Positions 28,383 through 29,021 of a stretch of DNA of 64,000 bases are shown in pieces. The stretch comes from Eledone cirrhosa (lineage: Eukaryota). Each line of letters starts with the position of its first letter. Positions within the stretch are counted from its first letter, which is position 1. The notes beneath the pieces were generated by a model. That model was not told the DNA's origin and made no database searches. It saw only the letters and a program-made list of their open reading frames with translations. The stretch spans positions 326,306,001 through 326,370,000 of the forward strand of contig OZ024742.1 in assembly GCA_964016885.1 (NCBI GenBank), written 5' to 3'. The translations under genes and the position numbers were made by a program.

Positions 28383-28384
<2 letters not shown>

Positions 28385-28443
28385 GAATAGAATGAAACGA
28401 AATTTCATTTCTCACTTTTAGTACGGCACTTATGTACTGCCTG

Positions 28444-28490
<47 letters not shown>

Positions 28491-28913
28491 GCTACTGTAC
28501 GTCTGTATACATATATGTATGTACGTATACATACATACTTACATTTAAGTAAGTGCCGTACTAAGAGTGAGAAATGAAATTTCGTTTCATTCTATTCCAT
28601 TTATCGTTTTCGGTGCGCCTGGCCGACTGAACTCACTCGATATGCAAATTAGGCTGCTCAGCCGTTAATTTTCATAAGGAAAGTATATACTTTCGAACGT
28701 TCAACCATCTGGCAGAAAGGTATACGGTGCTGACGATAGCTAACAAGCTTGAAACTACTACATCGTTCCTGTGTCAGTGTTGAACAAAAAGGTGACGTGG
28801 TCCTGAACACTGTTCGGCGTAAATCAGGCTGTCCGTTTGTTAACAAACGAACAAAGCGAACATTATAATAAATGTTCGCTAAACTGATACGTGCATATAT
28901 ATATGTGTGCCTG

Positions 28914-28970
<57 letters not shown>

Positions 28971-29017
28971 GCTACTGTACGTCTGTATACATATATGTAT
29001 GTACGTATACATACATA

Positions 29018-29021
<4 letters not shown>
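28383..29021 (+). mobile_element. Family H retrozyme-like element, terminally redundant with a 480-bp period and a short inverted 5' arm
   Basis: catgctactgtacgtctg...catactta recurs at 28488 and 28968. 28383-28432 is inverted relative to about 28550-28596. Confidence 0.8.
28725..28765 (+). ncRNA. Minimal type-I hammerhead motif (family H)
   Basis: cggtg-ctgacga-t-agc-taacaa-gct-t-gaaa-ctac-ta-catcg. Confidence 0.72.

What the first reader, a model, noticed from the sequence alone, without database searches (positions are those of the whole stretch)
28383..29021. Family H: ~480-nt terminally redundant, retrozyme-like unit suggesting a circular RNA template
Seen: the sense copy ends with the block it starts with (28488 and 28968; likewise 45313 and 45792). 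The inverted arm at 45050-45296 reads continuously across the end-to-start junction. The unit has one hammerhead, no credible ORF, several hairpins (gaaatgaaatttcgtttc, gaacattataataaatgttc, tttgtttacaaa) and an internal (TA)n. Established: metazoan non-LTR retrozymes are tandem hammerhead repeats that yield small circRNAs. Inference: H is a retrozyme mobilised in trans, or a PLE pseudo-LTR repeat.
Basis: partly seen in the sequence, partly recalled or inferred. Interest (0 to 1): 0.75.

Follow-up and report, generated by a model that had tools for sequence, protein, structure and literature searches.

The report
Two-armed, Penelope-mobilised hammerhead retrozyme
This is one copy of an abundant non-coding repeat with a predicted self-cutting RNA motif; its insertions are mirror-image arm pairs that end at two fixed points, likely because a Penelope-type jumping-gene enzyme copies one small RNA, probably a circle, onto both sides of a DNA break.

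Summary
The anatomy is real. H is a non-coding unit of about 420-520 nt with one type I hammerhead. A 24-base hammerhead stretch occurs 26,970 times in this 3.0-Gb animal genome, dispersed and in tandem arrays. Insertions sit in (TA)n as head-to-head arms ending at two sites about 60 nt apart; 63 of 64 classifiable two-armed insertions have one end of each kind. Coding Penelope-like elements (PLEs) here show the same geometry. The terminal redundancy alone does not show a circle: it is one unit plus a 5' truncation, and arrays exist. Better evidence comes from a young subfamily, where units of one insertion, both arms included, are near-identical but differ from other loci (0.5% against 5.1%), which points to a single-unit template. 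The highlighted copy's hammerhead has a stem III mutation. No RNA data were available and the partner PLE is unidentified. The class is known. This scan already reported 422- and 466-nt arrays with this architecture in this genome, probably the same family.

The parts
28385..28432 (-). Copy 1 inverted arm, tail only (unit positions about 63-110), outer end at site B, followed by (TA)n
28433..28437 (.). Junction of the two arms, 5 nt of filler
28438..29021 (+). Copy 1 sense arm: last 11 nt of a unit, (TA)n, one full 431-nt unit body (28488-28918), 49-nt (TA)n spacer, unit positions 1-54, outer end at site A
28545..28604 (+). 60-nt tail between end sites A (about unit position 57) and B (about 115), holding the hairpin at 28571-28588
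28725..28765 (+). Type I hammerhead motif, predicted cleavage after 28760; G to C at 28758 breaks stem III and its palindrome in this copy
28833..28877 (+). Two hairpins downstream of the hammerhead; two-sided pair changes among subfamilies at unit positions 347/362, 374/387, 375/386
29022..29061 (.). (TA)n target tract after site A
45046..45308 (-). Copy 2 (older subfamily) inverted arm, unit positions 296-431 then 1-117, outer end at site B
45313..45841 (+). Copy 2 sense arm from unit position 11 to site A, with an internal inverted duplication (perfect hairpin 45611-45682)
45530..45570 (+). Intact type I hammerhead motif with GUA triplet and palindromic stem III, predicted cleavage after 45565

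Best explanation
H is a non-coding, hammerhead-bearing repeat that inserts into (TA)n as head-to-head arms ending at two fixed sites about 60 nt apart, likely because a Penelope-like reverse transcriptase/endonuclease supplied in trans primes on both broken DNA ends and copies one RNA unit, probably a circle. Proposed steps. (1) Arrays are transcribed (inferred). (2) The palindromic stem III lets two hammerheads fold as a dimer and release monomers, which a host ligase closes (inferred from other retrozymes). (3) A (TA)n-targeting PLE protein nicks both strands; one end starts copying at site A and the other at site B (the end pattern is shown, the enzyme is inferred). (4) Each copy runs a variable distance, from the tail alone to 8 or more units, passing the cleavage site without stopping (shown). 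(5) The two cDNA ends join, often through short overlaps or the unit's palindromes (shown at junctions). (6) Older arrays then expand at the DNA level (shown by period-2 and period-3 variant patterns). My odds: PLE-mobilised and non-autonomous 0.9; priming from both ends 0.75; circle as the template 0.55-0.6.
For: End pattern: of 66 loci, 40 were two-armed, 37 with A plus B, 1 with A plus A, 2 unclear. In a second sample chosen downstream of the cleavage site, 28 of 28 classifiable two-armed insertions had A plus B (binomial p 7e-9; 2 loci shared with the first sample; 6 more two-armed insertions had one unclassifiable end). 67 of 83 A or B ends are followed by TA-rich DNA. A young Neptune-type PLE (1042-aa ORF at L093; more than 120 of 150 scored hits identical over the endonuclease) has the same target, a 60-nt A-B spacing and the same one-of-each ends. 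A Hydra-type PLE does too, with about 90 nt. PMC11167929 reports two internal RT start sites flanking the tail and extension of both strands in vitro. Single-unit template: in 18 multi-unit loci of a young subfamily, median divergence is 0.5% within and 5.1% between loci; opposite arms are identical in 5 of 11; 0.3% of 1747 between-locus pairs are identical; 11 of 18 loci carry a substitution in all covering units that none of the other 24 loci has. 140 of 141 contexts keep the exact length across the cleavage site. 5' ends do not pile up there (4 of 66, 3.4 expected). Hammerhead stem I pair: G-U 329, A-U 36, U-G 33 among fetched copies (redundant counts, three lineages). 33 of 55 arm junctions overlap by 1 base or more.
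Against: No RNA evidence of expression, cleavage or circles. H shows no significant sequence similarity to the Neptune pLTR (shuffle p 0.12 and 0.15) or to the Hydra-type loci, so the partner is unknown. In the subfamily of window copy 1, units of one locus share subfamily alleles but rarely private ones, and within-locus divergence (mean 4.3%, dominated by two older arrays) is close to between-locus divergence (5.2%), so that sample does not favour a circle. In the young set, 4 of 16 loci (L258, L259, L262, L278) have units differing from one another by more than from the nearest other locus. 'Private' is relative to 25 sampled loci out of thousands. Hammerhead conservation against the rest of the unit is not significant in single comparisons (Fisher p 0.11, 0.13, 0.44). 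No A-to-G strand bias was seen (46 against 44). In PMC11167929 uncleaved RNA was the dominant substrate and hammerhead mutants still inserted. In the 2026 preprint 8 of 9 tested Xenopus dimers did not cleave in vitro.
Confidence: 0.65

Rival explanations
1. Same PLE-driven two-ended insertion, but the template is an uncleaved linear read-through transcript of a tandem array, and the hammerhead is dispensable for mobility.
For: Arrays of tens of units exist. There is no pile-up of ends at the cleavage site. PMC11167929 found unprocessed RNA to be the main substrate. Period-2 and period-3 variant sharing in L232, L035 and the C14 array could be copied from heterogeneous sources.
Against: Nearly every young insertion has its own haplotype, uniform over up to 9 units and both arms. 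Linear copying would pass unit-specific variants on unit by unit and gives no step that fixes a new variant in all units. Subfamily changes in the hammerhead keep the fold.
Confidence: 0.2
2. The second arm is not separately primed but arises by fold-back or self-priming at a palindrome, as proposed for rotifer Penelope (PMC3846280).
For: 5' ends are enriched at the palindromic hairpin, unit positions 335-365 (12 of 66, 5.0 expected). Several junctions are symmetric (L223 192/192, L287 348/348). Identical arms are expected under this model.
Against: Most junctions are asymmetric. Fold-back does not by itself explain why the two outer ends are of different kinds in 63 of 64 cases, or the 8 tail-only B arms.
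Confidence: 0.08
3. H copies are pLTRs or 5'-truncated ends of a coding PLE that was not sampled.
For: The architecture is that of a PLE. The 2026 preprint finds Xenopus retrozymes homologous to pLTRs. Only a small part of the family was read.
Against: Whole units repeat head to tail with no ORF. No pLTR-type linkage was seen in 230 fetched loci. Coding PLEs next to H have their own pLTR and sit in H's (TA)n.
Confidence: 0.05
4. The redundancy is a target-site duplication, or H is a satellite spread by DNA recombination only.
For: Older arrays show DNA-level expansion.
Against: The repeated block is part of the unit. Fixed 3' ends, variable 5' truncation, (TA)n targets and dispersal over many contigs are marks of retrotransposition.
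Confidence: 0.02

Closest known systems
Metazoan non-LTR retrozymes (Cervera and de la Pena 2020, PMC7229834; passages and Discussion read)
   Same: Non-coding tandem units with one type I hammerhead, low GC (33%), dimers to long multimers, PLEs proposed as the mobiliser.
   Different: Unit longer than the 220-350 nt examples, with an internal (TA)n. Two-armed insertions with paired ends; the words inverted, microsatellite and target site do not occur in that paper's main text. Circles were shown there and are not shown here.
Non-LTR retrozymes as non-autonomous PLE derivatives (Li, Clavereau and Pollet, 10.64898/2026.07.22.740005; parts 1-3 of 5 read, supplements not seen)
   Same: Monomers, dimers and multimers coexist with PLEs; mobilisation in trans is proposed.
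   Different: There 24 of 57 Xenopus families matched known elements, nearly all PLE termini; no homologous pLTR was found for H. The parts read do not analyse insertion ends.
EN+ Penelope-like elements, Neptune and Hydra clades (PMC8557442 passages and section 11; PMC11167929 parts 1-2 of 4; PMC3846280 passages; PMC4209133 passages)
   Same: Inverted 5'-truncated arm, a tail often at one end only, (TA)n targets, hammerhead with palindromic helix III predicted to act as a dimer, two internal RT start sites.
   Different: H has no ORF. Its tail is about 60 nt against the 30-40 bp described. The one-of-each rule is near-strict here, while those papers call the tail optional or often at one end.

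Membership tests
Non-LTR retrozyme | Type I hammerhead in each unit | tested here: met
   Core and stems present; 56 of 68 array units have an intact core and stem III; stem I covariation. Rfam match is sub-threshold. Copy 1 itself is mutated.
Non-LTR retrozyme | Head-to-tail tandem copies with at least two hammerheads | tested here: met
Non-LTR retrozyme | No protein coding, no LTR/PBS/PPT frame | tested here: met
   Frames of at most 77 aa; PBS and PPT were not searched for.
Non-LTR retrozyme | Self-cleavage of the transcript | not testable with these tools
   Needs an in vitro assay.
Non-LTR retrozyme | Accumulation as circular RNA | not testable with these tools
   No raw RNA reads were on offer; only indirect genomic support.
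PLE-mobilised element | Inverted 5'-truncated arm and tail at one end | tested here: met
PLE-mobilised element | Microsatellite target | tested here: met
   67 of 83 ends are TA-flanked
PLE-mobilised element | Cis sequences homologous to a partner pLTR | tested here: inconclusive
   No similarity to three PLE families sampled; other families were not sampled.
Autonomous PLE | RT plus GIY-YIG ORF between pLTRs | tested here: not met

The most novel reading that the evidence does not exclude
PLE integration is an obligately asymmetric two-ended reaction: one enzyme complex primes the two ends of a (TA)n break at two different fixed sites of a single RNA circle and rolls round it. H insertions would then be a genomic record of retrozyme circles being reverse-transcribed, and hybrid insertions such as L269 (Hydra-type B end plus H A end) would name the enzyme.
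Probability: 0.45. Interest if true: 0.7.

Novelty: new member of a known kind. Interest (0 to 1): 0.5.

Why it matters
How PLEs make tandem and inverted insertions, and whether retrozyme circles are the real templates, is stated as open in the papers read (PMC8557442, PMC7229834, the 2026 preprint). H supplies a small non-coding substrate with mapped start sites, a near-strict end rule and young candidate enzymes in the same genome, so both questions can be tested directly. The class itself is known, and the highlighted copy is an ordinary, probably impaired member.

Tried and rejected
Sequencing runs: no RNA holder listed; laying four contig sets of unknown kind told nothing about RNA. Pile-up of 5' ends at the cleavage site: 3 of 79 (sample biased by selection on the hammerhead) and 4 of 66, both at chance level. 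Neptune-type element as parent: same geometry, no homology, and it inserts into H spacers, so it is younger at those loci. H-Hydra chimeras as proof of the partner: at L257 the two H units differ at 7 of 270 sites while the PLE part differs about 1% from its family, which favours a later PLE insertion; at L269 both parts are about 1% from their nearest relatives, so co-insertion stays possible, but 51 of 80 unpaired 5' ends join non-TA DNA of many kinds. The first copy count of 660 covered one hammerhead variant only and was superseded. The all-pairs covariation scan returns many pairs that covary only by descent; only pairs inside predicted local hairpins were kept, as weak support. The circular fold z-score of -13.9 is inflated by (TA)n; without it z is -3.8. 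Rfam microRNA hits are microsatellite artefacts. Sequence look-up in earlier findings gave nothing, nor did a word look-up. Paper searches for twin priming in PLEs, cephalopod hammerheads and recent PLE structures found nothing specific; the library lacks most subscription papers.

Full report
Observation. The repeats, the inverted arm, the hairpins and the lack of an ORF are as described, with the corrections listed in the observation check. I number the unit on window 28488-28918 (431 nt without the (TA)n spacer). The hammerhead spans positions 238-278 and the predicted cut is after 273. Copy 2 has the intact form. Copy 1 differs from the sample majority at 8 positions, one being G271C in stem III. 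Short palindromic helix III is the form that PMC4209133 (passages) describes as active mainly in dimers.

Family. The window is G000:C3:326306001-326370000 of a 3.0-Gb assembly. An exact 40-mer of one hammerhead variant occurs 660 times, a 24-mer downstream of the cut 14,946 times and a 24-mer inside the hammerhead 26,970 times; reversed controls give 0. Copies are dispersed and tandem: a stretch of C14 holds dozens of units. Subfamilies differ by up to about 20%, with periods from 420 to 522. The host group was not tested; earlier notes call it a cephalopod.

Ends. In a position-ordered sample, arms end at positions about 51-64 (A) or about 100-117 (B). After dropping 6 overlapping fetches from 72, 66 loci remained: 40 two-armed, 37 of them A plus B, 1 A plus A and 2 unclear. 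In a second sample, chosen downstream of the cut, 28 of 28 classifiable two-armed insertions were A plus B; 6 more had one unclassifiable end. Two loci are common to both samples, giving 63 of 64. The older subfamily of copy 2 shows the same pattern by inspection, with one A plus A locus. Both window copies have B on the inverted arm and A on the sense arm. Eight B arms in the first sample cover little more than the A-B tail, as in copy 1. The terminal redundancy is therefore an arm that started at A and stopped a little over one unit later.

PLE machinery. [quoted passage not shown] The linker fits the Neptune pattern given in PMC8557442; no tree was built. It is young, targets (TA)n, and has A and B ends 60 nt apart with one of each per insertion where both were seen. 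A second family with the CxCx5C linker of the Hydra clade behaves alike with about 90 nt. PMC11167929 (parts 1-2 of 4) reports two internal start sites flanking the tail and extension of both strands; PMC8557442 (passages) notes a tail often at one end only. H shares this geometry but no significant sequence with these families. No H unit serves as a pLTR in 230 fetched loci.

Circle or linear template. Arms cross the cut without length change in 140 of 141 contexts, some of which may be one copy fetched twice, and 5' ends do not gather there. The template was thus religated or never cut. In copy 1's subfamily the data do not discriminate. In the young 466-type set (65 units, 25 loci) units of one insertion are far closer to each other than to other loci, opposite arms are identical in 5 of 11 loci, and 11 of 18 multi-unit loci share a substitution absent from the other sampled loci. 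In 12 of 16 loci examined the median within-locus difference is below the distance to the nearest other locus; L258, L259 and L262 exceed it, and L278 does so in its maximum, while L260 is uniform but 1 change from L259. Many internally uniform but mutually distinct insertions imply a single-unit bottleneck per cycle, which a circle gives most simply, as PMC4209133 and PMC7229834 (Discussion) propose. Homogeneous source arrays are not excluded. Older arrays show period-2 and period-3 sharing, a sign of later DNA-level expansion.

Selection on RNA structure. Between subfamily representatives the hammerhead changes only at the free core position, in loop II and at one stem I pair that stays paired. 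The excess conservation is not significant on its own. Two downstream hairpins show two-sided changes, counted over related copies.

Comparison and verdict. H meets the sequence-level definition of a non-LTR retrozyme; cleavage and circles are untested. Mobilisation by PLEs is proposed in print (PMC7229834; the 2026 preprint, parts 1-3 of 5, whose supplements I could not see and which may list related families). I did not find the near-strict one-of-each rule or the single-unit evidence in the papers read or in searches. Earlier notes of this scan describe the same architecture for 422-, 466- and 310-nt arrays in this genome; the first two match my subfamilies by period and end spacing, but identity was not confirmed by sequence. 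Verdict: a new member of a known kind with useful mechanistic evidence; interest 0.5.

Noticed in passing
window 2017-2605 and 2808-3395: Another head-to-head pair (96% alike) with hammerhead motifs; one arm ends in (TA)n. A different PLE-type family.
   Followed up: partly
window 15366/15421, 25969, 41773, 60384/60502, 44306/48173: Further type I hammerhead-like motifs, several as inverted pairs. The 41773 type matches the pLTR hammerhead of a young Hydra-type PLE.
   Followed up: partly
L093:2939-6067 (G000:C1): Very young Neptune-type PLE family with open frames up to about 1280 aa and tandem copies; it inserts into H's internal (TA)n at L037, L079, L093 and L114.
   Followed up: partly
L269 (G000:C1:26723500-26728000): Hybrid insertion: inverted Hydra-type B end, a 718-nt open Hydra ORF piece, then an H unit ending at A, with no (TA)n between; the parts are of similar age.
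   Followed up: partly
L107:2560-2616: A piece of about 50 nt of another hammerhead family (window 48130 type) lies between the two H arms, suggesting a template switch.
   Followed up: no
window 28642-28649 and about 28682-28690: Octamer-like and TATA-like motifs upstream of the hammerhead. A resemblance to snRNA-type promoters is recalled, not from a call; the octamer is altered in many 422-type units.
   Followed up: no
L083:3892-4822: Tandem 310-nt units with a different hammerhead.
   Followed up: no
window 5587-7866 (-), 43012-43560 (-), 27861-28055 (+): LINE fragments: RVT_1 matches for the first two; the third looked like a restriction-like endonuclease end (recalled motif, no Pfam match).
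   Followed up: partly
window 19105-19447, 20464-23469, and about 15 copies of a 190-nt repeat (e.g. 3497-3714): A 70-nt tandem, a longer tandem array with a period near 84 nt, and a dispersed SINE-like family.
   Followed up: no
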